Below are positions 14,707 to 36,775 of a stretch of DNA of 64,000 nucleotides, in pieces. Origin of the DNA: Candidatus Parcubacteria bacterium (GTDB lineage Bacteria > Patescibacteriota > Microgenomatia > UBA12405); assembly GCA_023396915.1 (NCBI GenBank), contig JAEWUV010000007.1:146077-210076 (forward strand), in the 5' to 3' direction. The notes beneath the pieces are model-generated. The model worked only from the letters and a program-made list of their open reading frames with translations. It was not told the origin of the DNA and did no database searches. A program made the position numbers and the translations under genes. Position 1 is the first letter of the stretch. Every line of letters begins with the position of its first letter.

Positions 14707-14733
14707 CCATATCAAAACGATATGGTTTTTATT
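14706..14733 (+). terminator. rho-independent terminator hairpin (ACCATATC-AAAAC-GATATGGT + TTTTTATT)
   Basis: Perfect 8-bp inverted repeat with a 5-nt loop, followed by a T-run. Confidence 0.55.
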
Positions 14734-14753
14734 AATTTTTGATATGATTTTAT

Positions 14754-14811
14754 AAAAACTTGCGAAAACGTGCAATTTCTATATAAAAAAACTTGCGAAA
14801 ACGTGCAATTT
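14754..14811. repeat. two perfect 25-bp direct repeats (AAAAACTTGCGAAAACGTGCAATTT) with 33-bp period, 17 nt upstream of the ATPase start
   Basis: Copies at 14754-14778 and 14787-14811. Each contains a TTGC-N8-GCAA partial dyad. Confidence 0.8.
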
Positions 14812-14827
14812 TTACTAAAATTTTAAT

Positions 14828-16123: not shown

Positions 16124-16125
16124 AA

Positions 16126-17184
16126 AATCTTCTTCTAGTCTCTGCTATTTCACCAACCCCTCAAACCAGTGGGGGATCGGTAAGAATAAAAAACACACTC
16201 GAACAACTTTCAAAATATTACCACGTCGATTTTGTTACTTTTGACGAATCAAAAATTAAAACTCAATCAAAAAAAATAACTTCAAAAATCCCTTATTGGT
16301 TTTCACCTTGGTATAACCCAAAATTAATTTCTCAAATTCAAAAATTAACCTCCGAAAACAAATACGACATTATTCAAATCGAGTTTAGCCAATTACTTTA
16401 TTTAGCTAAATATTTACCCCAAAACACCCGAAAAATCTTCACTGCTCACGACATTTCCACTATTTCTTTTTATCGTCGTGTTTCAGAAGACAATCCATCA
16501 ATTTTAAAAAAAATAATCAGGCTTTTATTTTTTCTTCAAATTTATTTCTACGAAAAAAAATACCTACCAAAATTCGATACTATTATTACTGTTTCCCAAA
16601 AAGACCAACAAACACTACAAAAATGGCTACCAGACAAAAACATAATTTGTTTGGAAAACGGCATTGAAAAAATAAATTTTCTGTCTAAAAAACCATCAAA
16701 AATACTTAAACTTGGCTATATCGGATCCTTTAACCATACTCCAAACTTAAATGCTGTTAAATATTTTTTCGACAAAATCGCCCCGTTATTTAACAAAGAA
16801 AAAATTAAATATGAATTCTACTTAGCCGGAAACAATGATCCTCAATTCATTAAAAACAATTTCCCTAAGGCCATAAATTTAGGAAAAGTAAAATCAGTAA
16901 AGGATTTTTACAAAAAAATCGACTGTCTAATTACCCCGATTTTTGCTGGCTCCGGTTCTCGAATCAAGATTCTTGAAGCGTTAAGTTTTGGTATTCCTGT
17001 CGTTTCCAGCCCTGTTGGTGCCGAAGGAATAAATGTAAAATCCGACTACCTTCAAATAGCCAAAACTCCACAAGATTATATAAAATACCTTAAAAATCTC
17101 TCCAAAAGCAATCAACAACTCAAAAAAGAACTTAGCCCATTATTATGGACAAACATATTTAAAAAATACCCACAATTTATTTAA
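16126..17184 (+). pseudogene. GT4 glycosyltransferase lacking a start codon (5' end displaced by the ATPase insertion)
   Basis: Frame open from 16072 with no ATG/GTG before the TTG at 16651. Translation NLLLVSAISPTPQTSGGSVRIKNTLEQL... through to the C-terminal GT4 motif EALSFGIPVVSSPVGAEG. Confidence 0.6.
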
Positions 17185-17189
17185 CCATT

Positions 17190-18179
17190 ATGGTCAATAT
17201 TGCTTTTTCCTCCGATAATAATTACGCCTCATTTTTGTGTGCCTCCATTTTTTCTTTACTCAAAAATTCCAATAAACAAAACAAATATAATATTTATATT
17301 TTAGACGGAGGAATATCTAAAATAAACAAGACCAAAATTTTAAACAGCATCAAACAATTTAAAAACAAAAAAATAGAATTTATTAAAGTAAACCAAGAAA
17401 TTTTTAAAAATATTAAACAGTTTCTCTAACTTAATCAATCATCATATTACCGTTTATTATTACCACAGATTCTTCCAAAAATTAAAAAAATAATTTACTG
17501 TGACTGTGACCTTTTAATTTTAAAAGATATTTCAAATTTATATAACCAAAAACTTGGCAACAATTTGATTGGTTGCTGTCAAATATTTCACCCAAATTAC
17601 CAATCAATCTTACAAAGAATACATCCCCAAACAAAAATCAGACAGGCTATAAATTCGGGTGTAACCTTAATGAATTTAGATAAACTCAGACAAGGAAACT
17701 ATTCTAAAATTTTTATAAACTTTGTTAACAGAAATTCTCACAAACTTATTGCTGGTGACCAAGATGTTTTAAATATTGTTCTGTCTAACAAAATTAAGAT
17801 CATCAACCCAAAATGGAATACCACATCATATCTTTTTGTCGTTAATAATTATAAAAAATGTAATTTATCCAAAAAATTATTTAACACATGTACCCAAAAT
17901 CCCTCAATTGTTCATTTTGACGGTATAAAACCATGGATTAGCGGATCGTCTCATCCATACAAAAAAATATTTTTCAAATATATTAAAAAAACTGAATTTA
18001 AAGACTACAAAATAAAACCAAATCTTAAAAAATTTTTATTTAATCAAGTCTTTTATCTTGGTAATAAGATCGCTAATTTATTACCCCAAAAGATATATAA
18101 TCTAGTCGAAAAACAATATCTTAAAAATAATTTTTTAGAAAAACGTTACCAACAAATTATTAAAAATGAAACTAAGTAA
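17190..18179 (+). pseudogene. GT8-family glycosyltransferase interrupted by an in-frame TAA at 17427-17429
   Basis: ORFs 17190-17429 and 17565-18179 are in the same frame. Sequence after the stop reads LNQSSYYRLLLPQILPKIKKIIYCDCDLLIL (GT8 DxD region). Preceded by MVNIAFSSDNNYA (GT8 N-terminus). Confidence 0.6.
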
Positions 18180-18771
18180 GCCTCTCTTAAACTATTTAAA
18201 TTTTATTCTCGGCCAAATTAAAAGAGGTTTTGGTATTTTTTATACCAAAGATTTAATTCCCGAATATAAAAATTCAATCGGAAAACATACCTATGGTTTG
18301 CCAAAAATTTTTAAACTAGAACCAGACAGTAAATTAACCATCGGAAAATTTTGCTCTATTGCCAATGGTGTAAAAATATTCCTTGACGGAGAACACAATA
18401 CCAAAAATATTTCAACTTATCCTTTTGGATATTTTAATAATTTTAAAACTAAAAAACGTTACAAAACGCTATCAAAAGGTGAAGTAATCATTGGAAATGA
18501 TGTTTGGATTGGTTATGGGGTAACTATCCTTTCTGGAGTCAATATTGGCGACGGAGCCGTGATCGGTGCTTGTTCCCTTGTCACCAAAGATATTCCACCA
18601 TACAGTATCGTCGGTGGAATCCCGGCTAAATTAATTAAAAAAAGATTTAATCAACAAACTATAGACAAGTTAGAAAAAATAAAATGGTGGAATTGGAGTG
18701 ATAAAACAATCCAAAAAAATATAAAAATACTACAATCAAACAATCCAAAATTACTTAATAAACTTTACTAA
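18166..18771 (+). CDS. hexapeptide-repeat (left-handed beta-helix) acetyltransferase
   Basis: IGNDVWIGYGVTILSGVNIGDGAVIGACSLVTKDIPPYSIVGGIPAK. Confidence 0.8.
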   Translation: MKLSKPLLNYLNFILGQIKRGFGIFYTKDLIPEYKNSIGKHTYGLPKIFKLEPDSKLTIGKFCSIANGVKIFLDGEHNTKNISTYPFGYFNNFKTKKRYKTLSKGEVIIGNDVWIGYGVTILSGVNIGDGAVIGACSLVTKDIPPYSIVGGIPAKLIKKRFNQQTIDKLEKIKWWNWSDKTIQKNIKILQSNNPKLLNKLY

Positions 18772-19788
18772 AGCCCAATAAACCCTATAAATCGGATTAA
18801 TTATATAAGTAATTAAAACATTATTTAACTCAGGGAAATCCAATCGTAAACTAAAAAAGGGCAATATTTTTGAATCCGGCACAATCCTACTTTTTTGAAT
18901 TTCCACCCTTCTAGCTTTTATCTTCTCTTTGTTTTTTATCAAAAAATCATATGATTTTAATTTCAAGATAAACCATCCCGTAAACAGTGAATAAACCATC
19001 ATTAATATCTCATTAAAAATTAAAATTGGTAACAACTTTAACAAAGTCCTTTTTTCATAATTTTCAAAAACCATCATCAACCTATTTTTTTCCGAATGAT
19101 ACATTTTACTTTTATTTTTCGAAAAATTGTATTTGTGCCAAATCACTCCATTAGCTGATAAAAAATGTTTATATCCCAACATTAACCCCCTCCACGAATA
19201 ATTTTGATCCTCATTATACATAAAAAAATCTTCATCCAACAAACCAACATTTTCATAATAATCCCGAGAAATTAACATCGCCGTTCCTGAAACTGAAACT
19301 ATTTCCTCATCATTTTTTGGAACTTTTGTTTTTAAATAATTGCCACAATAACCGAAACCCAAATAATGAATAGTATTCCCAATGGTATTTATTTTTCTAG
19401 GCTCACTATAGAGCATCACTGTCGGTTGAATTAAACCAACTTTCTGCTCCTTCGATTTTTCTTTATAAGACTTTATTAAATTCGTTAATAAATTTTTATC
19501 AACTTTTGTATCAGCATTTAAAAGTAAACAAAAATCAGCCTTATTGGCAAAAGCTTGTTTAATTAATTTATTATTACCTCCGGCATACCCGGTATTTTCA
19601 TTAAATTGAAAGGTCTTAACTTTAGGAAAATTTTTAGCAATATATTCTACTGAACCGTCTTTTGAATTGTTATCAGCAAACCAAACCTCGTAATTATCAT
19701 AATTTTGTTTTAAAAGCGACCCAAAACAATCGTCTAAATTTTTCAAATCATTATAACCCAATACCAAAACAAAAACTTTATTTCTCAC
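18751..19788 (-). CDS. family 2 glycosyltransferase
   Basis: VLGYNDLKNLDDCFGSL...FADNNSKDGS. Confidence 0.7.
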   Translation of the reverse strand: MRNKVFVLVLGYNDLKNLDDCFGSLLKQNYDNYEVWFADNNSKDGSVEYIAKNFPKVKTFQFNENTGYAGGNNKLIKQAFANKADFCLLLNADTKVDKNLLTNLIKSYKEKSKEQKVGLIQPTVMLYSEPRKINTIGNTIHYLGFGYCGNYLKTKVPKNDEEIVSVSGTAMLISRDYYENVGLLDEDFFMYNEDQNYSWRGLMLGYKHFLSANGVIWHKYNFSKNKSKMYHSEKNRLMMVFENYEKRTLLKLLPILIFNEILMMVYSLFTGWFILKLKSYDFLIKNKEKIKARRVEIQKSRIVPDSKILPFFSLRLDFPELNNVLITYIINPIYRVYWALVKFIK

Positions 19789-20110
19789 TTTTAACTGAAA
19801 TCTTTCTAACTAATTTCTCTATCTGACTTTCCAAATTTCTTATCTTTATATTATTTTCAATAGTTATATAAGTCAAAACCATAAATGCCAAAATCATTCC
19901 CAAATCCATTACCCGAACAATAAATAATTCTTTTAACAAAGGCTCTAATAATTTTGGAAACAAAGCCATAAAAGCAAATACCCCAAAAATAATAATCCAA
20001 CCAATAAATAATTTCGTCGAAATGTTTTTCTTTTTCCAATGCAAAAACAACGAATAAGTCATAAACAAAGCAAAAGCCAACAAAATTATTTGTAAATAAA
20101 TAATACTCAT
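19778..20110 (-). CDS. small 3-4 TM membrane protein (DUF2304-like GT2 partner)
   Basis: 110 aa, hydrophobic helices, overlaps the GT2 start by 11 nt. Confidence 0.4.
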   Translation of the reverse strand: MSIIYLQIILLAFALFMTYSLFLHWKKKNISTKLFIGWIIIFGVFAFMALFPKLLEPLLKELFIVRVMDLGMILAFMVLTYITIENNIKIRNLESQIEKLVRKISVKSEK

Positions 20111-23464: not shown

Positions 23465-24238
23465 TTAGATGACTACTTCCAAATCATCCATAGCCACAAA
23501 CGAACCTGAAAATATTTTTTTGGCCAATTTTTCAGTTTTCTTTTTTAATTCAATCGAAGAATAGACGCTAGCATCAAAATGAGTCAAGGCTAATTTTTTG
23601 ACACCCTGTGCGGCTGCCATTTCTGCTACTTCAATTGGCGAACTATGACCCCAAGCATTAGACTCAGGTGCTTTCAAAAAACTACATTCATGAATCAGCA
23701 AATCAGCATTTTTTGATAATAATTCGTCATTTTTACATACGGCCGTATCACAACAATAAGTCAAAATCTTACCATCTAAATTTATTCTAAAACCAAAAGT
23801 CTCGTCTGCGTGAAACAATTTTTTGACTGTAAAAGTAAAAGGGGATTTATACTCGCCTTCTTTAAAAGATTGAAATTTAAAATTCGTAAATAATTCTTTT
23901 GGATTGGCAGTAAAAGGACTATCTAAAAAATTTTGCAACTTATCTACATACACTTCCGGACAATAAATACTTAAATCCAATTTTCCCTTTAATTTTGCCA
24001 ACGTATGCAAGCCTTCGATATGGTCAATATGAAGATGGCTAATAAACAGATAAACCGGTTTATCAAAATTGACATAACGACCAAGTTTAGACAAACCATT
24101 TCCGGCATCAAACACTAAATTAAATTTATCTGTTTCTACAAAGGTAGAAATTGTATTACCCGTTTCAGTGTCATACCAACCATTAGTCCCCAAAAAAATT
24201 ATTCTCATAATAGTCAATTTTACCCCATCTAAAAGCAT
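23465..24238 (-). CDS. MBL-fold metallo-hydrolase (RNase Z/beta-lactamase superfamily); real start probably the ATG at 24206-24208
   Basis: LFISHLHIDHIEGL (HxHxDH motif). Confidence 0.7.
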   Translation of the reverse strand: MLLDGVKLTIMRIIFLGTNGWYDTETGNTISTFVETDKFNLVFDAGNGLSKLGRYVNFDKPVYLFISHLHIDHIEGLHTLAKLKGKLDLSIYCPEVYVDKLQNFLDSPFTANPKELFTNFKFQSFKEGEYKSPFTFTVKKLFHADETFGFRINLDGKILTYCCDTAVCKNDELLSKNADLLIHECSFLKAPESNAWGHSSPIEVAEMAAAQGVKKLALTHFDASVYSSIELKKKTEKLAKKIFSGSFVAMDDLEVVI

Positions 24239-24302
24239 TTTTTCAATTTAAATGTTATAATCCCTATCCCAAGGTAACAGCACCTTGAGCACACATTAAA
24301 AT

Positions 24303-24308
24303 AGGAGG
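24303..24308 (+). promoter_or_regulatory. Shine-Dalgarno AGGAGG 10 nt upstream of the 24319 start
   Basis: Read directly from the sequence. Confidence 0.5.
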
Positions 24309-24318
24309 AAACATTTCA

Positions 24319-24549
24319 ATGGCAAAAGGACGACTTACATCCTCGGACCGACTCTGCCGAACCGCCATATGGTATTATGGCAACAACTGTTGGACAGTAC
24401 GTAAACTATCTGAACTTACCGGGTTCTTAGTAAGAGACATACTATCTGTAATCCAAAAAAATCCACAGGACTACCAAGAAAACAAAGGCAAGATTTCCAC
24501 GTATCAGGTAAAAAACCCAGAAAAATACCTTATCCCGGAAAACAATTAG
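24319..24549 (+). CDS. small winged-helix/HTH-like protein (paralog 1 of 3)
   Basis: CWTVRKLSELTGF aligns with the W-x-T-x-x-E/K-I/L-A-K-K motif of the next two ORFs. Lies in a GC-rich island. Confidence 0.45.
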   Translation: MAKGRLTSSDRLCRTAIWYYGNNCWTVRKLSELTGFLVRDILSVIQKNPQDYQENKGKISTYQVKNPEKYLIPENN

Positions 24550-24589
24550 AGACTAATTTCCTAAAAAATAAAACAGGAGAGTCTAAAAA

Positions 24590-24865
24590 ATGTCGACTTA
24601 CCCAAAAACTTTTCTAGAAAGCAGCGACGATTATACACTCACTACATTGGATCTATGTCTCAAAGTTGTCCGGTTACACAATCCATGGCTGACTCCGCAA
24701 GAGATGGCCAAAAAAACAGAGTTACAAGGGCACGAAGGTAGAATCAACTTTTTAGTCAGTCACTATGATTACCCTTTTCAGAAAAGGATTAGAAACGGTA
24801 TTGCCGAATATCGGTTAATAGACGCTAATCAATTTAGGAAAAGGAGACGTAGTCGCTGTGTTTAA
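24590..24865 (+). CDS. small winged-helix/HTH-like protein (paralog 2 of 3)
   Basis: LHNPWLTPQEMAKKTE, basic C-terminal tail RKRRRSR. Confidence 0.5.
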   Translation: MSTYPKTFLESSDDYTLTTLDLCLKVVRLHNPWLTPQEMAKKTELQGHEGRINFLVSHYDYPFQKRIRNGIAEYRLIDANQFRKRRRSRCV

Positions 24866-25067
24866 TAAATTTTTGAAAAGAATTTTTTCCCGGCAAAGAA
24901 ATAAAGACCACTATGAACTTTTCCATGTCATTTCTGATCATCCATGGATGACAGCGGAACAAATTGCCAAAAAATATTTTAAAGGAGACATTGAATGGGT
25001 AAATTTAATGACAGAACGCTATCATCTACATTTAGTCCGCAGCAATAGTCTCCACCGCCACAGGTAA
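24858..25067 (+). CDS. small winged-helix/HTH-like protein (paralog 3 of 3)
   Basis: SDHPWMTAEQIAKKYF, basic tail. Confidence 0.5.
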   Translation: MFNKFLKRIFSRQRNKDHYELFHVISDHPWMTAEQIAKKYFKGDIEWVNLMTERYHLHLVRSNSLHRHR

Positions 25068-25087
25068 ATACCCCTCCTAAATTCACG

Positions 25088-25141
25088 CCGGCAGGTTAGT
25101 GCGCATTCGCTCACTTATAAAATCCTGCCGGCCCTTTTTTT
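25088..25141 (+). terminator. rho-independent terminator (GCCGGCAGG...CCTGCCGGC + CCCTTTTTTTACC)
   Basis: 9-bp perfect inverted repeat at 25088-25096 / 25125-25133, followed by a T7 run. Confidence 0.55.
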
Positions 25142-25209
25142 ACCTTTACACATAATATTTTATTATTCAAACTCTAGCCAAAAATACACTCCTACATTAA
25201 AATAGGTAT

Positions 25210-26934
25210 ATGGACGGAGAAAGCCGCTATCAACCCGGAAAAAACACTGCCAAAGAAAAACAACCAGAAACAGTGTCAAAATTCAATACTGAAATCCAAA
25301 GTCTCATTGATCAAAAGCCTTTTGAACCAAGAATAGAACAACTTGCACTTATGGATCTACAAAAAGGACTTAAAACATATCGAATTGATGGAAAGACTGC
25401 CCCCACTTTATCCCTTTGGAATATGGCTTCAGAAACAGAAAAGATAAATGGAAACAACTTAGTTAGTGTAGGAATAAAAAAACATGGAAGATTAATTCAA
25501 AAGGCAGCAATTTATATCGCCAACAGGGTCAAAGATGGAACTATTACATTAGGGATGGACAGAGCCCAAATCTTTTCAGAACAATTATTCAACTATGGTA
25601 AAAGTTTAAATGAAGGTAGGTCAAATACCAGAACAACACCATTCGAGCAAATAGTTGAAAAAGAAGAGCTTGATCAACAACAAAGCCAAATAATCGAACA
25701 TTTATTAGGTATCGATACTTTTTTAGAAACACCAACCAGCCAAAATGATATTGAACTACAAAGAAAATCAATACTAAGAAAATTTTTTATTTCTGTCGGG
25801 GATAATCAAAGAAACATGGCCGTATTATCACAAGATTCAGATATTGTCCAAGATCAATATCAAGCTAACCAAATAATAGAAGCTATCAAAATAGCCATTG
25901 AAAAACCAGCCAGAGAATTAGAAGGTAGTATCATTCTACAGGGAATAAAACAATCACAAGAAACTATGTCATTAGTACCTTTACATGTAAAGGAGTTTTT
26001 TGACTGGCTTGGAATAAAAACAGAAGGTCTCTTTTGTTCCTTAACCATACCAAAATATAGAAGTAAACTTGAAAAGCATCGTAATAATATAGATCTTTCT
26101 AATGAAAAAATCGGAGAAAAAGAAATATCAACCGCAAAAAAAATTAGAAACGCTACTACCATTCTCACTGGTAAAGAAAGAGCCAAAAATCATAATCGAA
26201 TTCATAAGCCAACCAATAAAGAATATCATGTTCTAGCCACCACCTCAGGTGCTATCTGGATGCAACAGGCTGGAATAAATTGTGCCATTGCAAATATCCC
26301 TGACGCTTCTGGTATATTTTTTATGACCACCGACGGTAGAGTCTTTTCAATGGATATGACCAATCCAACAAAAACCTTTGATGTAACTGAAAATGTTCAA
26401 AACTCCCCATTGTTTAAACAATCTCTCAAAGCTGAAGGATTAAGAATGAGAAACCCAAAACAAACCGGTGAAAAAGCATATCTGACACTATATCCTCCAA
26501 AAGACGGTCGAAGGATTTTAACCCTTTTTAATAAAGCTATCGAATATCGAAATGCACCTCCTATAGAAGGAAAAGATCGCAATCACGCTATGGACAAATT
26601 TCGAAATTATCAATTATCTATCAAAACTTTTGAAAAAATTATTACTCCTAATCTCCAAGATGAAGATATTTGGTATCAATATGCTGTAACCCTTATGAAA
26701 AGTGTTACTGATGAACAGTTTAAAAATACAAATATAATATCAAACCAAAACAAAAATTATTCTCTTCAAAAAGCTATCGACGCCTTTTTTCAAACCACTC
26801 AATTAAATCATAACAACCACCAAGCGTATACTCATATTGCTGAAATTCTTGAAATGAATTCTCTTGACCAAGAGGCAGCCAAATTCCGTAAACAAGCAAG
26901 AGAAGCAAAGAAAAGGCAAAAACTCGTCGCCTAG
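25210..26934 (+). CDS. hypothetical 574-aa soluble protein in GC-rich island; function unknown
   Basis: Long ORF whose GC content is clearly higher than the flanks. No recognisable catalytic motifs. Helical, repeat-like C-terminus. Confidence 0.5.
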   Translation: MDGESRYQPGKNTAKEKQPETVSKFNTEIQSLIDQKPFEPRIEQLALMDLQKGLKTYRIDGKTAPTLSLWNMASETEKINGNNLVSVGIKKHGRLIQKAAIYIANRVKDGTITLGMDRAQIFSEQLFNYGKSLNEGRSNTRTTPFEQIVEKEELDQQQSQIIEHLLGIDTFLETPTSQNDIELQRKSILRKFFISVGDNQRNMAVLSQDSDIVQDQYQANQIIEAIKIAIEKPARELEGSIILQGIKQSQETMSLVPLHVKEFFDWLGIKTEGLFCSLTIPKYRSKLEKHRNNIDLSNEKIGEKEISTAKKIRNATTILTGKERAKNHNRIHKPTNKEYHVLATTSGAIWMQQAGINCAIANIPDASGIFFMTTDGRVFSMDMTNPTKTFDVTENVQNSPLFKQSLKAEGLRMRNPKQTGEKAYLTLYPPKDGRRILTLFNKAIEYRNAPPIEGKDRNHAMDKFRNYQLSIKTFEKIITPNLQDEDIWYQYAVTLMKSVTDEQFKNTNIISNQNKNYSLQKAIDAFFQTTQLNHNNHQAYTHIAEILEMNSLDQEAAKFRKQAREAKKRQKLVA

Positions 26935-26944
26935 ATATGGAAAG

Positions 26945-27028
26945 GGGTCGCGACGTTGGTACGGGAAAGTAGGGGGCGGCAAGCATACGCTAGCCACATC
27001 TATCTTCCGACACAACGTCACGACCCGC
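26945..27028. other. GC-rich (~55% GC) structured non-coding segment with a 14-bp imperfect inverted repeat enclosing ~55 nt
   Basis: GGGTCGCGACGTTG (26946-26959) pairs with CAACGTCACGACCC (27014-27027). No ORF; lies between convergent genes. Confidence 0.4.
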
Positions 27029-27168
27029 AATCCGCAGAAAACCTTTTAAGATAACCAATAATAAGCCACCAGCGCCGCCAGACACACACCGACCGAGACC
27101 AAAAATACAAGCAGAACTCGAAGGGTTCCCCTACAGTCTTCTTTTTTTTCCTCTTGTGATCTTTTCAC

Positions 27169-27789
27169 CTAAACACCTCCTTCAACGTCTTCCCAAGTGG
27201 AAAAATATTTTGGCTTGACTGACTCATAATTATAAACGGCCTTTATAATTCCAACAATCGTGCGTATATCTTGCAACGAAACACCATAAATAATATACGC
27301 AGGATTAATCGCCGCCATAATCTTACATGAACGCACATCAACCCAAAACATAGTCAGAGTGTCCATCTCAAAATCTTTGTCGTATAAGGATCTAATCACT
27401 TCGTCATCTTGATTAAGAAGCAATGTGTCCCCCAAGATAAGCGACCCATAAGGAGCTGATTCTTTTGCCCCTTGCGGCACGTATTTTCCAGAATATCCAC
27501 AAGAGATCAGCAGATTGACAGGATCAATTTCATGATGCAGACTTTCTTGAAACTCAGTCAAGGGTAACCACCCCAGTCCAGCATCAAATCCCGTTCTCAC
27601 CTTAAGGCTCTGCAAAAGCCCAACATGGACGATTGCAAAAAATCCCAAAAGAAGAAAAGCATAAACAAGATAGGATAAAACCCTTAAAAAAAACTTTTTA
27701 ATTGGGCCATCCTCCTTCTTAACTTCAGCCTTCTGGGGTTCCTTGGGTTCTTGGGGGACAGCATAGGGGTTAGGTTTCATAATTTTCAT
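27169..27789 (-). CDS. membrane-anchored hypothetical protein (single TM, ~150-aa extracytoplasmic domain)
   Basis: Start chosen at the ATG preceded by AAAGGAGA (MKIMKPNPY...); the longer ORF to 27882 begins with TTG. TM FFLRVLSYLVYAFLLLGFFAIV. Confidence 0.5.
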   Translation of the reverse strand: MKIMKPNPYAVPQEPKEPQKAEVKKEDGPIKKFFLRVLSYLVYAFLLLGFFAIVHVGLLQSLKVRTGFDAGLGWLPLTEFQESLHHEIDPVNLLISCGYSGKYVPQGAKESAPYGSLILGDTLLLNQDDEVIRSLYDKDFEMDTLTMFWVDVRSCKIMAAINPAYIIYGVSLQDIRTIVGIIKAVYNYESVKPKYFSTWEDVEGGV

Positions 27790-28138
27790 TCTCCTTTTCA
27801 ACGATAAGTTACAAAAACTTTCAGTGCGTCTTCTGAATAGATTCCAAAGAGACAAGAGATAACCACCTTTACCCAGACCCAAAAATCAATTTTTTTCATG
27901 CTAATTCTCCTTTATTTTGGTTAGTTACATAGCAACGATATATTCAAGCTTCAAAAAAGTTTAAGAAGCATTAATTTTCTGCGGATTTTAAAAGAGCGAA
28001 TAAAACATACATTTCGGACGCCTTGTCCAAAAGAATTTTATTCACAAAAACAATGATATTCTATTGAATATCGACGGTAATTTTACCAAAACCAAACTTA
28101 GAAGTCAAAAATTATAGGATATACTTTGTCTTGTAATT

Positions 28139-29458
28139 TTAATCAATCTGACGTCTTCCCACCGGAATATATCTAAAACCTAACCTCTTCATATCCTTAA
28201 GTTTAAATACATTTCGGCCATCAACCACACAAGGACAATTCATAACCTTTTTAATTTTCTCCAAATCCACCTCTTTAAACTCTTTCCATTCGGTAGTAAT
28301 TACCAAACAATCCGATTTTTCCACCGATTTTAATAAATCAGTTTCATAAACTACGCTATCACCCAACACCCCTTCGACACCTTTCTGAGCTATTGGATCA
28401 AAGACTCTTACCTTTACCCCTCTGTCTAATAATTGATGGATTACCACCAATGCCGGTGCTTCACGTATATCATCAGTTCCTGGTTTAAAAGCCAAACCCC
28501 AAACAGTTATTGTCTTGCCGGCCAAATCGTCTCCTAATATCTTTTGAATCTTAGCCAACAAAGATTTTTTCTGTGCTTCATTGGTATTTTCCACTTCTTC
28601 CAATATTCCAAAACGAATTCCGTTTTCCTGGGCCATTTGAATCAAACCTTTGACATCTTTTGGAAAACAACTACCTCCATATCCCACTCCAGCTTTCAAA
28701 AAAGCCTTAGTTCCAATCCTTTTATCCAACATCATTCCTTTAGAGACTTTTTCTACGTCGGCTCCCAGTTTTTCACACAAATTAGCAATTGAATTTATAA
28801 AAGAAATTTCCGTTGCCAAAAAAGCATTAGAAGCATATTTAATCATTTCTGCCGTTTTTATATCAGTAAAAATTAAATTTTCCGTTTTAAAACCTCCATA
28901 AAGTTCTTTTAAAATCTCTTTGGCTTTTTCCGAGGCAGCCCCAACAACAATTCTATCCGGATTCATAAAATCAGACACCGCCATTCCTTCCCTCAAAAAT
29001 TCTGGATTCGAAACCACATCAAACTCCCCTTTATAATTTTCACAAATAATTTTTGTTACCAAATCACCAGTCCCGATTGGTACAGTTGATTTGTTAATAA
29101 TTACTTTATATCCATTCATATTTTTTGCCACCGTCTCGGCCGCTGATCTAACATAATCCAAGTTGACGTTTCCATTAGGCATCGGCGGAGTTCCCACCGC
29201 AATAAAAACTATTTCTGAATTTTTTATCGCCCTCCCAGCATCAACAGTAAAACTTATCCTTTTTTCATCAATGTTTTTTTTAACTAATTCTTCCAAACCT
29301 TCCTCATAAATTGGGATAATTCCTTTATTTAAATCATTTATTCTCTTCTCATTAATATCCACCCCGATCACCTCATTACCCAATTCTGCCAAACAAGCCC
29401 CGGTCACTAAACCAACATACCCTACACCGATAACTGCAATTCTTTTCATATAAACCAA
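28139..29458 (-). CDS. ugd: UDP-glucose 6-dehydrogenase (nucleotide-sugar dehydrogenase family)
   Basis: MKRIAVIGVGYVGLVTGACLAELGNEV, GGSCFPKD (catalytic Cys motif). Likely start at M4 (29449). Confidence 0.85.
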   Translation of the reverse strand: MVYMKRIAVIGVGYVGLVTGACLAELGNEVIGVDINEKRINDLNKGIIPIYEEGLEELVKKNIDEKRISFTVDAGRAIKNSEIVFIAVGTPPMPNGNVNLDYVRSAAETVAKNMNGYKVIINKSTVPIGTGDLVTKIICENYKGEFDVVSNPEFLREGMAVSDFMNPDRIVVGAASEKAKEILKELYGGFKTENLIFTDIKTAEMIKYASNAFLATEISFINSIANLCEKLGADVEKVSKGMMLDKRIGTKAFLKAGVGYGGSCFPKDVKGLIQMAQENGIRFGILEEVENTNEAQKKSLLAKIQKILGDDLAGKTITVWGLAFKPGTDDIREAPALVVIHQLLDRGVKVRVFDPIAQKGVEGVLGDSVVYETDLLKSVEKSDCLVITTEWKEFKEVDLEKIKKVMNCPCVVDGRNVFKLKDMKRLGFRYIPVGRRQID

Positions 29459-34041: not shown

Positions 34042-35295
34042 ATGTCAAAAATTCTTTGTCTTAGTCATATTTTCCCCCCGGCAATAGATGGGGGATCTCG
34101 GGTCGTCTACAAACTCGGCCAATATTTTCAAAACCAAGGTAATCAAGTTTTATTTCTTTCTTCTGACTGTTCTTCCACCGACGATTTCACCAAAAAAGTT
34201 TCCCTTTTTAAGGGAAAAACCGGTTTATCCGGAAAGGGTTTCATCAAAATTCCTGTCTATCATCATCTCCGCCGCTTTTTAAAATTTATTAATCTTTTTA
34301 TTCCTCCAAAAACCTATCTCCATCAGCTACTCAAAGTTTTTCAAAAAGGACCTATTTTTAAATTTATACCTTTTATAAAAACCACTTTCAAAATTATAAA
34401 ATTTAAACCTGACTTAATTATCGCCGGACCACTCCCCACCACCATTATTCTCTACGCCAATTTTCTCAAAAAAATATCTACGATCTACAATCTACGACCT
34501 AAAATCTTACTTAATGCTTCTTTTCACCCCACCGACCACGACTTTCACTGTCTTCCTTTAATTAAAACCTTACAAAAAGCCGACTACCTTTGGACCCTGA
34601 CCCAATTCGAAACTAACTATTTTATAAAAAATTTTAATATTAATCCAAAAAAAATAATTCTTGCCGGCAACGGCATCGACCAATCATTTTTAAAAACTAA
34701 TAAACAAAAAAAAGTAGTGCCCTGCCCTGTCAAGGGAAGGGGTAGGGAAGGGTTTCGTCTTTTATTTATCGGCTCACTTTCCGCCCATAAAGGCCTTGAT
34801 ACCCTTATCACTTCTTTCTCTAACATCTATCGTCCAAAATCTAATATCTCGTTAACCATTGCCGGTCAAAAAACTCTCTACTACCCCCAAATCAAAAAAC
34901 AAATCCAAACACTTCCTCAAAATATTAAATCCAAAATAAAATTTATTTTTAATTTCTCCCAGAACAAATTAAGCCAAATTATCGACAACTGTGATATTTT
35001 AATTTTACCCTCAAAACAGGAAAGTTTTGGCTTAGTTATTATTGAGGCTTGGGCCAGACAAAAACCGGTTATTGTTAGCGATATTCCTTCACTTTCTGAA
35101 ATAACCCAAAAAGCCAATGGGGGTCTAACCTTCAAACTCAACAATTTTTCCAATCTAAATCAAAAAATATCAAAATTATTAAAGAACTCCAAACTTGCCA
35201 ATCAACTTGGCAAAAATGGTTTTAATTATGTTAAAAATAATTACACATGGAACATAGTCGGAAGAAAAATAAAAGAAGAAATCTCATTATATTAG
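34042..35295 (+). CDS. GT4 glycosyltransferase (carries repeat copy 2 at its inter-domain linker)
   Basis: MSKILCLSHIFPPAIDGGSRVV...; C-domain start LLFIGSLSAHKG; ...LPSKQESFGLVIIEAWA. Confidence 0.8.
   Translation: MSKILCLSHIFPPAIDGGSRVVYKLGQYFQNQGNQVLFLSSDCSSTDDFTKKVSLFKGKTGLSGKGFIKIPVYHHLRRFLKFINLFIPPKTYLHQLLKVFQKGPIFKFIPFIKTTFKIIKFKPDLIIAGPLPTTIILYANFLKKISTIYNLRPKILLNASFHPTDHDFHCLPLIKTLQKADYLWTLTQFETNYFIKNFNINPKKIILAGNGIDQSFLKTNKQKKVVPCPVKGRGREGFRLLFIGSLSAHKGLDTLITSFSNIYRPKSNISLTIAGQKTLYYPQIKKQIQTLPQNIKSKIKFIFNFSQNKLSQIIDNCDILILPSKQESFGLVIIEAWARQKPVIVSDIPSLSEITQKANGGLTFKLNNFSNLNQKISKLLKNSKLANQLGKNGFNYVKNNYTWNIVGRKIKEEISLY
34719..34755 (+). repeat. 37-bp GC-rich element copy 2 (translated VPCPVKGRGREGF)
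   Basis: GCCCTGCCCTGTCAAGGGAAGGGGTAGGGAAGGGTTT. Confidence 0.9.
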
Positions 35296-35723
35296 CTTTT
35301 ATTGGTTTGCTGATTATCATTGGTATAATTTCACTTTTGCTTAAAAAGCAAAATACCTTTCCAAAAAGTTTAGGCGTAGTCATCAAAAACAACGGCTACT
35401 ATCTAGAAGTGGCTCAAAGTAACCAAGAAACAAAAAAAGGGTTATCCAACAGAGACCAGCTTTGCCCTAATTGCGGTATGCTTTTTGTTTTTAACAAGGA
35501 AGATCAACATGATTTTTGGATGAAGGATACCCATATTCCGCTAGACATTATTTGGATTAATTCAAAAAAAGAAATTGTCAAAATTATTGTCTCCGCCAAA
35601 ACTGACTCTGAAACCATCTATAGCAACAAAGCTCCCGCTCAATACGTTATTGAACTGCCAGCTAACGAAAGTCTAAAACTCAACCTGCAAGTAGGGGACA
35701 CCATTCCTATCTTTGACCAGTGA
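35247..35723 (+). CDS. DUF192-domain protein
   Basis: LCPNCGMLFVF...DFWMKDTHIPLDIIWIN...YVIELPAN matches the DUF192 pattern. The listed start overlaps the upstream GT by 48 nt, so the true start may be downstream. Confidence 0.6.
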   Translation: MEHSRKKNKRRNLIILAFIGLLIIIGIISLLLKKQNTFPKSLGVVIKNNGYYLEVAQSNQETKKGLSNRDQLCPNCGMLFVFNKEDQHDFWMKDTHIPLDIIWINSKKEIVKIIVSAKTDSETIYSNKAPAQYVIELPANESLKLNLQVGDTIPIFDQ

Positions 35724-36775
35724 AAGTTAAACAAAAGTTTACTAACAAAAAGAAGAAGTGCCCTGCCCTGTCAAGGGAAGGGATAGGGAAGGGTTTATCT
35801 TTTTCTATAGTCATTCCCAATTACAACGGAAAAAATTTTTTACCGAATTGTCTTCAATCCCTACTTCAATCAATCAAAAATTGTCCTAAGTCAAATTTTG
35901 AAATTATCATTGTCGACAATGGTTCCACCGACAACAGCATTCAATTAGTCAAAGATTTTTTTACCAAACATAAACTCCAAAATCTAGAATCTAAAATCTT
36001 ACATTTAGAATCTAACACCGGTTTCGCTTTTGCCGTTAATCAGGGTATTAAAATTGCCAAATATCCATATGTTTGTGTTTGTAACAATGATTTAAAATTA
36101 AAAAACGATTGGTTTAAAATTATTAGCCAAGAAATCAAAAACAACCAAAAAAATCATAAAATTACTACTTTTTTTAGTACTGTTCTCAACTATAATGGCA
36201 CTAAATTTGAATCCCAAGGTTTTGAATTTAATTACTCCGGCAAATGCACCAACATCAGCAACGATAAAATATTTTTAGCATCTAGCATCTTGCATCTTAA
36301 ATCTAATTTAGTATGGGGTGCTCCTGCTGCCCTTATAGTTTATAAAAAGGAAATTATCCAAAAAATAGGCGCCTTTGATTCTGACTTTTTTGCCTACGAA
36401 GAAGATGTCGATTTAAACCTCAGACTTAAAAATTTCGGTTATCAAACCCTATATATTCCCCAAGCTATTTGTTACCATCTTGGCGGCGCCACCAGTAATA
36501 GAATGGGGAATTTTAGAAACAGAATGGATGCCAAAAATTGGATTTATATTATCATCAAAAACTACCCCGCTAAATTTATTTTTAAATATTTCTTTCCTAT
36601 CATAGAACAAAGGCTCAGAAATTTATCATCTTTAATCAAAAATACGTCAATTAAAAAACTTCCAAAAGACATTATCGCTACCTATGGCGAAGTCTTATTC
36701 AACCTACCCAAAATGTTCCAAAAACGCCGCTATACCCAAAAAATGTTAAAATCAAACCATGATTATTGGACTTGA
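35720..36775 (+). CDS. family 2 glycosyltransferase (GTG start; repeat copy 3 encoded in N-terminal extension)
   Basis: SFSIVIPNYNGKNFLPNCLQSL...IIVDNGSTDNS. Confidence 0.75.
   Translation: MKVKQKFTNKKKKCPALSREGIGKGLSFSIVIPNYNGKNFLPNCLQSLLQSIKNCPKSNFEIIIVDNGSTDNSIQLVKDFFTKHKLQNLESKILHLESNTGFAFAVNQGIKIAKYPYVCVCNNDLKLKNDWFKIISQEIKNNQKNHKITTFFSTVLNYNGTKFESQGFEFNYSGKCTNISNDKIFLASSILHLKSNLVWGAPAALIVYKKEIIQKIGAFDSDFFAYEEDVDLNLRLKNFGYQTLYIPQAICYHLGGATSNRMGNFRNRMDAKNWIYIIIKNYPAKFIFKYFFPIIEQRLRNLSSLIKNTSIKKLPKDIIATYGEVLFNLPKMFQKRRYTQKMLKSNHDYWT
35760..35796 (+). repeat. 37-bp GC-rich element copy 3 (translated CPALSREGIGKGL, a different frame)
   Basis: GCCCTGCCCTGTCAAGGGAAGGGATAGGGAAGGGTTT. Confidence 0.9.

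What the first reader, a model, noticed from the sequence alone, without database searches (positions are those of the whole stretch)
24240..27900. GC-rich island, likely horizontally acquired
GC content rises abruptly (sampled 60-nt windows about 45-50%, against about 30% in flanking genes) from about 24.29 kb to 27.9 kb. The island lies between the MBL-fold hydrolase and ugd. It encodes only lineage-orphan proteins: three small wHTH paralogs, a 574-aa soluble protein and a membrane-anchored protein. It also has its own strong SD sequences, a canonical terminator and a GC-rich structured non-coding stretch.

No integrase, transposase or tRNA is visible at the borders. The only direct repeat at the borders is a weak 9-mer, AATTTTACC, at about 24244 and about 28080.
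Basis: seen in the sequence. Interest (0 to 1): 0.6.

Follow-up and report, generated by a model that had tools for sequence, protein, structure and literature searches.

The report
Conserved orphan locus, not acquired island
The supposed GC-rich foreign island is a weakly GC-enriched but vertically inherited locus of an uncultivated small-genome bacterium, and its main gene encodes a fast-evolving, probably catalytically dead relative of an undescribed enzyme-like protein family.

Summary
The GC rise is real but much smaller than reported. The segment is 37.1% GC against 32.7% for the rest of the window, and the right half of the window is already 35-37%.

The rise is confined to two short modules. 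One is a three-gene operon of small basic proteins at 24.3-25.1 kb. The other, at 26.9-27.9 kb, holds a long conserved hairpin and a convergent cassette for three small proteins, at least two of them membrane proteins. The 574-aa gene between them has native composition (GC3 23.7%, codon-usage z +0.26).

Homologues of that gene occupy the same slot, next to the MBL hydrolase and/or the ugd cluster, in all five other lineages found. A sister lineage with dS of about 1 carries every part of the segment plus one extra gene.

The 574-aa protein is not an orphan. A profile search finds 210 related cluster representatives. Sixty of 66 aligned members have invariant Cys/His/Asp residues followed by TPR repeats. 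The window's subclade has lost the Cys and the His and evolves 3-4 times faster than its neighbours.

There is no integrase, tRNA, phage or plasmid match, and the 9-mer border "repeat" is chance. A 13-nt inverted repeat flanks the cassette and changes in concert across lineages; its role is unexplained.

The parts
23465..24238 (-). MBL-fold hydrolase. This is the conserved left anchor of the locus, not part of the GC-elevated segment.
   Evidence: It matches Pfam Lactamase_B_2 at 1.2e-20. It is 75-76% identical in L003 and L088 with dN/dS of 0.14-0.16. It lies next to the large gene's homologue in L003-L005 and the P0004 contig; in L088 two genes lie between them.
24253..24287 (+). Putative extended -10 promoter (TGTTATAAT, 24253-24261) and a leader palindrome (CAAGGT-N6-ACCTTG, 24270-24287) upstream of orf76.
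   Evidence: Read directly from the sequence. The stretch is nearly invariant between the window and L003, although synonymous sites in the neighbouring genes are saturated. The function is inferred.
24319..24549 (+). orf76, a small basic protein with a strong Shine-Dalgarno site (AGGAGG).
   Evidence: It is 84% identical in L003 with dN/dS 0.20, and its synonymous divergence is unusually low (pS 0.28). GC is 41%, GC3 43% and codon-usage z -5.0. It has no Pfam, NCBIfam, PHROG, PADLOC or PDB match. RNA folding is not unusual (z +0.67).
24590..24865 (+). orf91, a small basic protein.
   Evidence: It is 67% identical in L003 with dN/dS 0.15. Only one homologue exists among 5.8 billion clusters. 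It shares a 12-residue motif with orf69 (HNPWLTPQEMAKK / HPWMTAEQIAKK, E 2e-4).
24858..25067 (+). orf69, a small basic protein. Its GTG start overlaps the orf91 stop codon, which suggests translational coupling.
   Evidence: It is 71% identical in L003 with dN/dS 0.22. ORF listing; sequence.
25087..25141 (+). Intrinsic terminator of the small-ORF operon (GCCGGCAGG ... CCTGCCGGC followed by a T-run).
   Evidence: Sequence. L003 shows a compensatory G-C to A-T change in the stem.
25210..26934 (+). The 574-aa soluble protein. It has an N-terminal helical region, an alpha/beta core homologous to a Cys/His/Asp domain but lacking the Cys and the His (H340, A366), and C-terminal TPR-like helices.
   Evidence: Close homologues are P0002-P0004. 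A profile search finds 210 related representatives. The Cys/His/Asp columns are analysed. A profile built only from active members hits this ORF at 2.2e-17. The AF2 model has pLDDT 88.6 and pTM 0.88. The C-terminus gives TPR structural matches. No transmembrane segment is predicted. Composition is native. It evolves fast: 40-45% identity against 74-81% for the conserved flanking genes (MBL, ugd, 462-aa, epimerase).
26944..27026 (-). Long GC-rich hairpin between the convergent genes. It is probably the terminator or 3'-end stabiliser of the minus-strand cassette, and possibly acts in both directions.
   Evidence: Folding z-scores are -4.1 (+ strand) and -4.75 (- strand). All three lineages fold into it (-39 to -53 kcal/mol) with compensatory pairs (UA/GC, CG/GC, GC/UA, CG/UA, GC/AU). 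In the sister lineage it stays with the cassette rather than with the large gene.
27029..27041 (.). Left arm of the 13-nt perfect inverted repeat (AATCCGCAGAAAA). It lies between the stop codon of the 40-aa ORF and the hairpin.
   Evidence: Found. It is identical and at the same relative position in L086 and L087. In L088-L090 both arms carry the same 1-nt deletion (AATCCGCGAAAA / TTTTCGCGGATT).
27046..27168 (-). 40-aa ORF encoding a small single-pass membrane peptide. Its GTG start overlaps the stop codon of the 206-aa gene.
   Evidence: ORF listing. A hydrophobic segment spans residues 12-40. A 39-aa counterpart sits at the same position in L086 and L087, and a 53-aa peptide with a hydrophobic stretch (read from its translation) sits there in L088.
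27169..27789 (-). 206-aa membrane-anchored protein (ATG at 27789). It has a charged N-terminus, one transmembrane helix and a C-terminal domain of about 140 aa.
   Evidence: The gene is called as 206 or 203 aa in the public contigs. The transmembrane segment spans residues 32-64. Its only homologue is P0153 (43-49% identity), from the same metagenomes as L003, with dN/dS 0.18. GC is 40.7% and codon-usage z -4.2. No family matches.
27798..27899 (-). 33-aa ORF with a good Shine-Dalgarno site (AAGGAG). It is the first gene of the cassette.
   Evidence: ORF listing. A 35-aa counterpart is called in L087. The start region is conserved.
27975..27987 (.). Right arm of the inverted repeat (TTTTCTGCGGATT). 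It lies in the 5' leader of the cassette.
   Evidence: It sits in the most conserved block of the leader alignment. It is unpaired in the predicted fold of the leader.
28012..28108 (-). Conserved promoter and leader of the cassette: TTGACT-17-TGGTAAAAT (28108-28080), the palindrome GATATT-N6-AATATC (28055-28072), and a small hairpin followed by a U-run (28032-28012).
   Evidence: The promoter scores 10/12 with a TG extension, and the hairpin is terminator-like. All these elements are conserved in L086 and L088, and the small hairpin shows compensatory changes.
28139..29458 (-). ugd (UDP-glucose 6-dehydrogenase). This is the conserved right anchor of the locus, not part of the segment.
   Evidence: All three Pfam UDPG_MGDP_dh domains match. 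It is 81% identical in L088 and syntenic in the P0003 contig and in L088.

Best explanation
This is a vertically inherited, lineage-specific locus. It occupies a fixed chromosomal slot between an MBL-fold hydrolase and the ugd/epimerase/metK envelope-sugar gene block. The host is a low-GC, probably CPR (Roizmanbacteria-like) bacterium. It is not a recently acquired GC-rich island.

Its constant component is the 574-aa gene.
- The gene has native composition.
- It belongs to a sizeable, undescribed family of soluble proteins that includes at least one Parcubacteria (CPR) member.
- Family members have a helical N-terminus, then an alpha/beta core with invariant Cys, His and Asp, then C-terminal TPR repeats.
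- The Cys sits at the start of a helix and the His and Asp on the following strands, a layout like that of papain or transglutaminase-type thiol enzymes.
- In the window's subclade the Cys and His are replaced, while the fold is still predicted with high confidence and selection remains purifying but relaxed.
- Inferred: the protein most likely works as a non-catalytic binding or adaptor protein. It would use the disabled pocket and the TPR surface, and its partners change quickly.

The modest GC excess comes from two short accessory modules on either side of this gene.

1. An operon with an extended -10 promoter, three small basic proteins (76, 91 and 69 aa) and an intrinsic terminator. Inferred: these proteins are DNA-binding regulators.

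2. A convergent cassette transcribed from a conserved promoter just downstream of ugd.
- It encodes a 33-aa peptide, a 206-aa single-pass membrane protein and a 40-aa membrane peptide.
- It ends in a long GC-rich hairpin that acts as its terminator.
- It is bracketed by a 13-nt inverted repeat, with one arm in the 5' leader and the other directly before the hairpin.
- Inferred: the two arms pair within the one transcript and couple its 5' and 3' ends, affecting stability or translation.

The accessory modules are shared with one sister lineage and replaced by other genes in more distant relatives. The slot is therefore a small hot spot of gene turnover around a stable core gene.
For: Composition: searches show that the 574-aa gene is typical and that only the small modules are atypical.

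Synteny:
- Homologues of the large gene lie beside the same MBL hydrolase in L003-L005 and the P0004 contig.
- They lie next to ugd-epimerase-metK-LPG synthase in the P0003 contig.
- In the 130-kb contig L088 the gene lies between both anchors, and the same gene order continues for 10 kb.
- The sister lineage carries orf76, orf91 and orf69, the terminator, the large gene, the hairpin and the 35/226/39-aa cassette, all in one order. This order was reconstructed from a 119-nt contig overlap.

Age of the locus: dS is about 0.9-1.8 for flanking genes.

Coding status of the small ORFs: dN/dS is 0.15-0.22.

Family membership:
- 210 representatives match at E<=1e-3 and 128 at E<=1e-10.
- Sixty of 66 aligned members have the Cys and the His; the window protein and P0002-P0006 lack both.
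- A profile built from active members only hits the window protein at 2.2e-17.
- TPR Pfam families match in 58 of 66 members.
- One member is annotated as coming from Candidatus Parcubacteria.

Structure: the AF2 models have pLDDT 88.6 and 92.0. Their secondary structure puts the Cys column at the start of a helix and the His and Asp columns on successive strands.

Fast evolution: the large protein is 40-45% identical across lineages, against 74-81% for the conserved flanking genes (MBL, ugd, 462-aa, epimerase), with dN/dS 0.38-0.41.

Hairpin and inverted repeat.

No mobility signatures.
Against: - orf76 and the 206-aa gene have the most atypical codon usage in the window. They and orf91 have no homologues outside two sister lineages. 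Foreign origin of those modules cannot be excluded.
- No relative with an empty slot, or one clearly lacking the large gene, was available. The only named genome hit (Roizmanbacteria, 58% MBL identity) shows no synteny at all. Vertical inheritance is therefore shown only within a shallow clade.
- The thiol-enzyme fold is not demonstrated. Foldseek against PDB gives nothing significant for the whole model or for the isolated core. The HMM search against PDB sequences and the Pfam scans give nothing. hhalign against four solved transglutaminase cores aligns the Cys motifs in register, but at a probability of only 1.1%.
- The adaptor function, the DNA-binding role of the small proteins and the RNA pairing of the repeat arms are inferences without direct tests.
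- A perfect 13-nt inverted repeat within 1.2 kb occurs about 9 times per 64 kb by chance in this composition. Only its cross-lineage behaviour gives it weight.
Confidence: 0.7

Rival explanations
1. The whole segment was acquired horizontally, but long ago. It entered the common ancestor of this small clade. Since then the large gene has drifted to host composition, while the small genes have kept a foreign codon signature.
For: orf76, orf91, the 206-aa gene and the 40-aa ORF have atypical GC3 and codon usage. The same elevated GC is seen in the sister lineage: orf76 39.8%, orf91 41.3% and the 226-aa gene 37.9%, against 32% for the MBL gene. The closest homologues are extremely few. The locus sits inside a polysaccharide gene cluster, a class of region that is often mosaic.
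Against: Differential amelioration within 3.6 kb is ad hoc. The large gene belongs to a family that includes at least one other CPR (Parcubacteria) member. There are no integrase, tRNA, repeats, phage or plasmid matches. The more distant relative L088 has the large gene without the small modules, so the parts have different histories.
Confidence: 0.12
2. The locus is an uncharacterised conflict or defence-type system. The fast-evolving dead-protease/TPR protein would be the sensor, the small basic proteins the regulators, and the small membrane proteins the effectors. The system would sit in a variable slot.
For: The large protein and the 206-aa protein evolve 3-4 times faster than their neighbours. 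Gene content around the large gene turns over between lineages. The combination of TPR repeats, a protease-like domain and small transmembrane proteins recalls abortive-infection layouts; this is my own recollection and was not tested.
Against: PADLOC and PHROG scans give no hits, apart from a Csn2 match at E 0.045 that is chance level. dN/dS stays below 0.5, so positive selection is not shown. The neighbouring genes are envelope-sugar metabolism genes, not a defence island. Active family members sit in unrelated housekeeping contexts.
Confidence: 0.08
3. The 13-nt inverted repeats are recombination sites. The 0.95-kb membrane-protein cassette would be an invertible or exchangeable DNA segment (a phase-variation shufflon or inverton), which would also explain why cassette content differs between lineages.
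For: Perfect inverted repeats bracket the cassette exactly, and their boundaries are conserved in three lineages. The same 1-nt deletion occurs in both arms in L088-L090, as gene conversion between recombining arms would produce. The content between the arms differs between lineages: 33/206/40 aa, 35/226/39 aa and 62/53 aa.
Against: No recombinase is found within about 10 kb on either side, and none is evident among the window's other large ORFs. Every assembly examined has the same orientation. The arms are short. Both arms lie inside the predicted transcript, which suits an RNA-level role equally well.
Confidence: 0.07

Closest known systems
Transglutaminase-like / papain-like thiol enzymes fused to TPR repeats (for example the SirB1/YchA-type 'transglutaminase-like + TPR' architecture, recalled from memory), and CPR-C4, a CPR cysteine protease whose transglutaminase-like (vasohibin-type) fold was invisible to sequence searches (PMC9108980)
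   Same: The wider family has invariant Cys, His and Asp residues. The Cys lies at the start of a helix, followed by a conserved G-I 15-16 residues later. The His and Asp are 16 residues apart on successive strands. A C-terminal TPR array follows. As with CPR-C4, the family includes a CPR (Parcubacteria) member and has no Pfam match.
   Different: There is no significant sequence, profile or Foldseek match to any solved transglutaminase or papain-like structure. No 7OB6, 7OB7 or 7PJO (CPR-C4) chain appears among the top 50 structural hits. The proteins carry a roughly 300-residue helical N-terminal region. The window protein itself lacks the Cys and the His.
Genomic islands (horizontally acquired, compositionally deviant segments)
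   Same: The segment shows a local GC and codon-usage deviation in some genes. It encodes lineage-restricted hypothetical proteins and lies within a polysaccharide biosynthesis region.
   Different: The deviation is small and patchy. The largest gene has native composition. There is no integrase, tRNA or att-like repeat. The segment is present at the syntenic position in all relatives recovered.
5'-UTR/3'-UTR base pairing within one bacterial mRNA, as in icaR of Staphylococcus aureus (PMC3868564)
   Same: Two perfectly complementary 12-13-nt tracts lie in the predicted 5' leader and the 3' UTR of one transcription unit. They are conserved, and they change together across lineages.
   Different: The 5' arm lies about 75 nt upstream of the first Shine-Dalgarno site rather than covering it. 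There is no transcript or RNase evidence. DNA-level roles (operator or recombination site) are not excluded.
Rho-independent terminators shared by convergent genes
   Same: A GC-rich hairpin lies between two convergent coding regions and is conserved through compensatory changes.
   Different: The hairpin is unusually long (about 83 nt, imperfect) and the U-tract is weak (CCCCUUUCC). The simple terminator scan did not call it.

Membership tests
Horizontally acquired genomic island | Base composition or codon usage clearly different from the host genome across the segment | tested here: inconclusive
   The segment is 37.1% GC against 32.7%, about 1.4 SD above the mean. The 574-aa gene is native (GC3 23.7%, z +0.26). 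orf76 (z -5.0) and the 206-aa gene (z -4.2) are atypical. Other parts of the window deviate as much in the opposite direction.
Horizontally acquired genomic island | Mobility genes, a tRNA target or flanking direct repeats at the borders | tested here: not met
   There is no tRNA or tmRNA. No recombinase or transposase Pfam domain occurs within about 10 kb on either side. The 9-mer AATTTTACC occurs 7 times in the window against 3.8 expected. There is no phage or plasmid DNA match.
Horizontally acquired genomic island | Absent from the syntenic site in related genomes | tested here: not met
   The large gene is present at the same slot in all five other lineages found. L096 is too short to judge. 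All parts of the segment are present, with one extra gene, in the sister lineage. Only the small modules are missing in L088. No genome with an empty slot was available.
Transglutaminase-like / papain-like cysteine hydrolase superfamily | Catalytic Cys-His-Asp(/Asn) triad | tested here: not met
   The window protein has His at the Cys column (residue 340) and Ala at the His column (residue 366). It keeps D375 and D382. Sixty of 66 family members have both the Cys and the His.
Transglutaminase-like / papain-like cysteine hydrolase superfamily | Core fold with the nucleophile at the N-terminus of a helix, packed on a beta-sheet that carries the His and Asp | tested here: inconclusive
Transglutaminase-like / papain-like cysteine hydrolase superfamily | Sequence or profile match to a curated family (for example Pfam Transglut_core) | tested here: not met
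   No Pfam family other than TPR matches any of the 66 members or the 32 isolated cores. The HMM search against PDB sequences gives 0 hits. hhalign against four solved cores gives a probability of 1.1%.
TPR repeat proteins | Tandem helix-turn-helix repeats recognised by TPR profiles or by structure | tested here: met
   Fifty-eight of 66 family members hit Pfam TPR families. The window protein's C-terminal helices (430-573) match designed TPR and MamA structures (Foldseek probability 1.0, E 0.014-0.06). It gives only a weak NCBIfam MamA match (E 0.011) and no Pfam TPR hit of its own.
Winged helix-turn-helix DNA-binding proteins (orf76, orf91, orf69) | Recognisable HTH or wHTH domain by profile or by structure | tested here: inconclusive
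   There are no Pfam, NCBIfam or PDB sequence hits. The proteins are basic (K+R exceeds D+E) and have no transmembrane segment. Paralogy is limited to a 12-residue motif shared by orf91 and orf69. orf76 is unrelated by BLASTP.
Intrinsic (Rho-independent) terminator at 25087-25141 | GC-rich stem followed by a T-run, downstream of a stop codon | tested here: met
   A 9-bp GC-rich stem is followed by TTTTTTT, 20 nt after the orf69 stop codon. The stem shows a compensatory change in L003. The simple scan missed it because its loop is longer than 8 nt.
Invertible DNA segment (inverton) | Inverted repeats, a site-specific recombinase, and both orientations present in the population | tested here: inconclusive
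   Inverted repeats are present and conserved. No recombinase lies nearby. Only one orientation is seen in the assemblies. Read-level data cannot be examined with these tools.

The most novel reading that the evidence does not exclude
The locus is a previously unrecognised functional module of CPR bacteria. A rapidly diversifying, catalytically dead thiol-hydrolase/TPR protein would act as a sensor or decoy for a partner that its active paralogues process. It would be wired to a membrane-peptide cassette whose expression is switched by the conserved, co-varying 13-nt inverted repeat, either through 5'-3' mRNA pairing or through DNA inversion. In other words, it would be a new kind of conflict or surface-variation system in episymbiotic bacteria.
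Probability: 0.1. Interest if true: 0.7.

Novelty: new variant of a known kind. Interest (0 to 1): 0.3.

Why it matters
As a candidate for horizontal transfer, the finding does not hold up, and recording that prevents a false island call. A small GC bump in an AT-rich genome can come from structured RNA hairpins and a few short genes rather than from foreign DNA.

Two by-products have modest value.
- The work delimits an undescribed protein family of at least 210 cluster representatives, at least one from a Parcubacteria (CPR) genome. The family has a conserved Cys/His/Asp core and TPR repeats and is absent from Pfam. It includes a subclade that has lost its catalytic residues yet persists and evolves fast, which makes it a clean natural example of a pseudoenzyme.
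- It identifies a short inverted repeat that brackets a membrane-peptide cassette and changes in concert on both sides across lineages. This is directly testable as an RNA-level or DNA-level switch in organisms where almost no regulation has been characterised.

Tried and rejected
- **Known RNA families.** Rfam at gathering thresholds and ARAGORN over the whole window found nothing.
- **orf76 as a structured RNA.** This was considered because the region is GC-rich and has low synonymous divergence. The fold z-score is +0.67, and the substitutions favour third codon positions with dN/dS 0.20, so it was rejected.
- **Family scans of the island proteins.** Pfam, PHROGs, PADLOC and NCBIfam gave no meaningful hits.
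- **PDB sequence searches for the three small proteins.** Only noise was returned.
- **Structural identification of the core.**
  - Foldseek of the whole model against PDB returned only weak TPR hits.
  - Foldseek of the whole model against BFVD returned nothing significant.
  - Foldseek of a separately predicted core domain against PDB returned nothing significant.
- **Profile tests for transglutaminase homology.** The HMM search against PDB gave no hits. hhalign against four solved transglutaminase cores gave a probability of 1.1%.
- **Metagenome-contig scan with the family alignment.** No confirmed locus was found.
- **Genome-contig scan with the MBL hydrolase.** The nearest named genome is a Roizmanbacteria MAG at 58% identity, which has no synteny and is therefore uninformative about presence or absence.
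- **Genomic context of two active family members.** The contexts are unrelated housekeeping neighbourhoods and give no functional clue.
- **RNA duplex energy between the leader and the 3' UTR.** It is not distinguishable from shuffled controls.
- **Chance frequency of 13-nt inverted repeats.** It is high in this composition, so the repeat is not significant on its own.
- **The small ORF upstream of the distant homologue in L096.** It shows no BLASTP similarity to orf91 or orf69 and no Pfam match.
It is a chance match.

Full report
**1. The observation**

The window is AT-rich at 33.0% GC. The segment 24240-27900 is 37.1% GC, against 32.7% for everything else. It ranks first among 1207 sliding windows of the same length, but lies only about 1.4 SD above their mean. 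The 1-kb bins to its right (28-64 kb) are mostly 33-39% (29.5-39.4%). Sixty-nt windows inside the segment range from 20% to 60%, and only 12 of 62 reach 45%.

Per-gene analysis shows that the excess is patchy:

| Feature | GC | GC3 |
|---|---|---|
| 574-aa gene (47% of the segment) | 34.0% | 23.7% |
| Genes outside the segment (mean ± SD) | 32.6% | 27.5 ± 4.8% |
| orf76 | 41% | 43% |
| orf91 | 40% | 38% |
| 206-aa gene | 40.7% | 38.6% |
| 40-aa ORF | 44.7% | 41.5% |

The hairpin-containing intergenic stretch is also elevated.

I ran a likelihood test of synonymous codon choice, with simulation for gene length. It gave z = -5.0 for orf76, -4.2 for the 206-aa gene, -2.5 for orf91 and +0.26 for the 574-aa gene. 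The other genes in the window have SD 1.8 and a minimum of -3.8. The left 20 kb of the window deviates as strongly in the AT direction. So there are two short compositionally odd modules around a native gene, not one island.

**2. Borders**

- The window holds no tRNA or tmRNA and no Rfam family.
- No recombinase or transposase domain occurs in the precomputed Pfam annotation of the 21.7 kb centred on the locus.
- The 9-mer AATTTTACC lies at 24216 (inside the MBL coding sequence) and at 28079. It occurs seven times in the window against 3.8 expected.
- The 28079 copy is the reverse complement of the extended -10 box (TGGTAAAAT) of a promoter that is conserved in relatives.
- The segment has no blastn match in the phage or plasmid collections.

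**3. Related genomes**

The 574-aa protein has three close homologues among 5.8 billion protein clusters (37-42% identity). The exhaustive profile search added two more, P0005 and P0006. The genomic contexts are as follows.

- **P0002 (L003-L005).** The order is metK(-), MBL(-), then orf76, orf91, orf65 and the 538-aa gene on the + strand.
- **P0003.** The order is an 81-aa gene, the 557-aa gene and two further genes. After these come ugd, the epimerase, metK and the LPG synthase on the - strand.
- **P0004.** MBL(-) lies directly next to the 600-aa gene.
- **P0005 (L088, a 130-kb contig).**
  - The order starts with MBL(-). A 188-aa gene, a 712-aa sulfatase-domain gene and the 526-aa gene follow on the + strand.
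  - Two small ORFs with hydrophobic stretches come next on the - strand.
  - After them come ugd, a 461-aa membrane protein, the epimerase, a 557-aa gene, metK and the LPG synthase on the - strand, and finally GT4, DUF192 and GT2 on the + strand.
  - Apart from the extra 557-aa gene, this is the same order as in the window for 10 kb to the right.

The 206-aa protein has a single homologue, P0153 (43% identity by BLASTP, 49% in a global alignment). It comes from the same two metagenomes as L003 and L004, and it sits in an identical 35/226/39-aa cassette. The end of L003 overlaps the reverse complement of L086 by exactly 119 nt, the assembler's k-mer size. The sister lineage therefore has all parts of the segment in the same order, with one extra gene between the large gene and the cassette.

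Flanking genes differ between these lineages by dS of about 0.9-1.8, so the arrangement is old. The one caveat is that no genome with an empty slot could be examined. The nearest named genome in the species-representative collection is a Candidatus Roizmanbacteria MAG at 58% MBL identity, and it shows no synteny.

**4. The small-ORF operon**

All three ORFs are conserved in L003, at 84, 67 and 71% identity, with dN/dS of 0.20, 0.15 and 0.22. They are real genes. Each has a good Shine-Dalgarno site. orf69 starts at a GTG that overlaps the orf91 stop codon.

Upstream lie TGTTATAAT and the palindrome CAAGGT-N6-ACCTTG. Both are nearly invariant in L003. The operon ends in a hairpin plus T-run at 25087-25141, and the stem carries a compensatory G-C to A-T change in L003.

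The proteins are basic and lack transmembrane segments. The wHTH assignment could not be tested: nothing matches in Pfam, NCBIfam, PHROGs, PADLOC or PDB sequences. orf91 and orf69 share only a 12-residue motif. orf76 is unrelated to orf91 by BLASTP. orf91 has only the L003 homologue in the whole database.

orf76 has oddly low synonymous divergence (pS 0.28 against 0.51-0.62 for the neighbours). Its RNA folds no better than shuffled sequence (z +0.67).

**5. The 574-aa protein**

A profile of the four close homologues, searched against 1.84 billion representatives, found 210 proteins at E<=1e-3 and 128 at E<=1e-10. Most are 550-750 aa, and the match covers profile positions of about 64-440. One carries the source name 'Candidatus Parcubacteria bacterium'.

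In a 66-sequence alignment, 60 members share the motif NC[VL]GAS..GG..E.G[IL].YLV...P.HS.L.L.TSD..V.W.DM. The Cys and the His are each present in 60 of 66 sequences, and the two Asp in 60 and 62. Pfam recognises only C-terminal TPR repeats, in 58 of 66 members, and nothing in the first 400 residues or so.

The window protein and P0002-P0006 have His, Tyr or Ala at the Cys column and Ala, Thr or Tyr at the His column. A profile built only from active members still hits the window ORF at 2.2e-17, and it hits nothing else in the window.

AlphaFold2 models are confident: the whole protein has pLDDT 88.6 and pTM 0.88, and the core residues 296-450 have pLDDT 92. In the models the Cys column lies at the start of a helix (336-353), the His column at the start of a strand (366-372) and the Asp column at the end of the next strand (378-381). 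TPR-like helices follow (430-573).

That layout, and the spacings (Cys to G-I at +15/+16; His to Asp at +16), resemble transglutaminase-like cores. I checked this against real solved sequences retrieved.

- hhalign aligns the two Cys motifs in register, but at a probability of only 1.1%.
- The HMM search against PDB sequences finds nothing.
- Foldseek finds no significant PDB match for the core. A few cysteine-protease or deubiquitinase chains appear at E of about 1.

I therefore treat 'thiol-hydrolase-like' as a supported resemblance, not as membership. Loss of the putative nucleophile and base in the window's subclade is a direct observation.

The protein has no hydrophobic segment. It evolves 3-4 times faster than its neighbours. 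Against L003 it is 45% identical where MBL is 76%. Against L088 it is 40% identical where the neighbours are 74-81%. dN/dS is 0.38-0.41 against 0.08-0.16.

My committed reading is a non-catalytic binding or adaptor protein (a pseudoenzyme) whose ligand changes quickly. This is inference. The contexts of two active family members gave no functional clue.

A published precedent shows that CPR genomes hide transglutaminase-like proteases undetectable by sequence (CPR-C4, PMC9108980). No 7OB6, 7OB7 or 7PJO (CPR-C4) chain appears among the 50 structural hits listed.

**6. The minus-strand cassette and its RNA/DNA elements**

Downstream of the ugd stop codon, reading on the - strand, lie the following elements.

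- A promoter, TTGACT-17-TGGTAAAAT (28108-28080).
- A palindrome, GATATT-N6-AATATC (28055-28072).
- A small hairpin followed by a U-run (28032-28012).
- A conserved block ending in AATCCGCAGAAAA (- strand reading of 27987-27975).
- The 33-aa ORF, the 206-aa single-pass membrane protein and the 40-aa membrane peptide, with their start and stop codons abutting or overlapping.
- Four nt after the last stop codon, the complementary 13-mer (27041-27029).
- Immediately after that, the 83-nt hairpin (27026-26944).

The hairpin folds far better than shuffled sequence (z -4.1 and -4.75). It is kept in three lineages with several double-sided changes. In the sister lineage it stays with the cassette rather than with the large gene. 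I therefore read it as the cassette's terminator or 3' stabiliser.

A perfect 13-nt inverted repeat within 1.2 kb is not rare here: 15 occur in the window, and about 9 are expected. This one, however, has three distinguishing properties.

- It is identical at both positions in L086 and L087.
- It has the same boundaries in L088-L090. There both arms carry the same one-base deletion, giving AATCCGCGAAAA / TTTTCGCGGATT.
- A polymorphism between L086 and L087 lies just 3 nt outside the arm, while the arm itself is intact.

Both arms lie within the predicted transcript. Intramolecular 5'-3' pairing, as described for icaR (PMC3868564), is therefore my preferred reading. Operator sites or recombination sites remain open. 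The content between the arms differs between lineages. No recombinase lies nearby, and only one orientation is seen in the assemblies.

**7. Verdict**

The GC signal is weak and composite. The segment as a whole is not a recently acquired island.

It is a conserved, clade-specific locus in which a stable, fast-evolving pseudoenzyme gene is flanked by two older accessory modules that sit in a variable slot.

The undescribed Cys/His/Asp-TPR family, its catalytically dead subclade and the co-varying inverted repeat are modestly interesting. None of them is extraordinary for CPR genomes, which are rich in uncharacterised genes.

Noticed in passing
window 1-20000: The left 20 kb is a cluster of glycosyltransferase and sugar-modification genes. 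It is markedly more AT-rich than the rest of the window: 24-33% GC per kb, mostly below 31%, with GC3 down to 16%. Its codon-usage z-scores run from +2 to +5. This is a larger compositional anomaly than the reported island, in the opposite direction.
   Followed up: partly
window 34042-42511: Several glycosyltransferase genes on the + strand have codon-usage z-scores of about -3 to -3.8. They are nearly as atypical, in the GC direction, as the island's small genes. Compositional heterogeneity is therefore widespread in this window.
   Followed up: no
window 23465-24238 (-): The MBL-fold hydrolase carries a precomputed hit to PF23023 (Anti-Pycsar_Apyc1) as well as to Lactamase_B_2. Its homologues at 40-47% identity are widespread in Syntrophales, Omnitrophota, Elusimicrobia and methanogenic archaea. 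It looks like a broadly distributed housekeeping-type enzyme rather than an anti-defence gene.
   Followed up: partly
window 24319-24549 (+): orf76 shows about half the synonymous divergence of its neighbours between the window and L003 (pS 0.28 against 0.51-0.62). Its RNA has no unusual predicted structure. The extra constraint on its nucleotide sequence is unexplained.
   Followed up: partly
window 28055-28072 and 24270-24287: Two different perfect palindromes sit just downstream of the two putative extended -10 promoters: GATATT-N6-AATATC and CAAGGT-N6-ACCTTG. Each is conserved in relatives. They are candidate operators or 5' stem-loops.
   Followed up: partly
L003 4807-5358 joined to L086 (reverse complement): The sister lineage has an additional gene of about 266 aa, with no Pfam match, between the large gene and the membrane cassette. 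The two contigs overlap by exactly 119 nt, which implies an assembly-graph break inside that gene, possibly from strain variation.
   Followed up: partly
L088 7102-9956: In the more distant relative, the three small ORFs are replaced by a 188-aa protein with no Pfam match and a 712-aa polytopic sulfatase-domain protein that resembles a lipoteichoic-acid synthase. This shows gene turnover in the slot.
   Followed up: no
L096 17-265: An 82-aa ORF lies upstream of the most distant dead-triad homologue (P0006). By eye it resembles a small helix-turn-helix protein. It has no BLASTP similarity to orf91 or orf69 and no Pfam match.
   Followed up: yes
window 14828-16123 (+): An AAA_14/DUF4143 ATPase gene sits about 8 kb to the left of the locus. 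It is isolated among sugar-metabolism genes, next to what look like fragmented Glyco_transf_8 ORFs (79 and 169 aa in L001).
   Followed up: no
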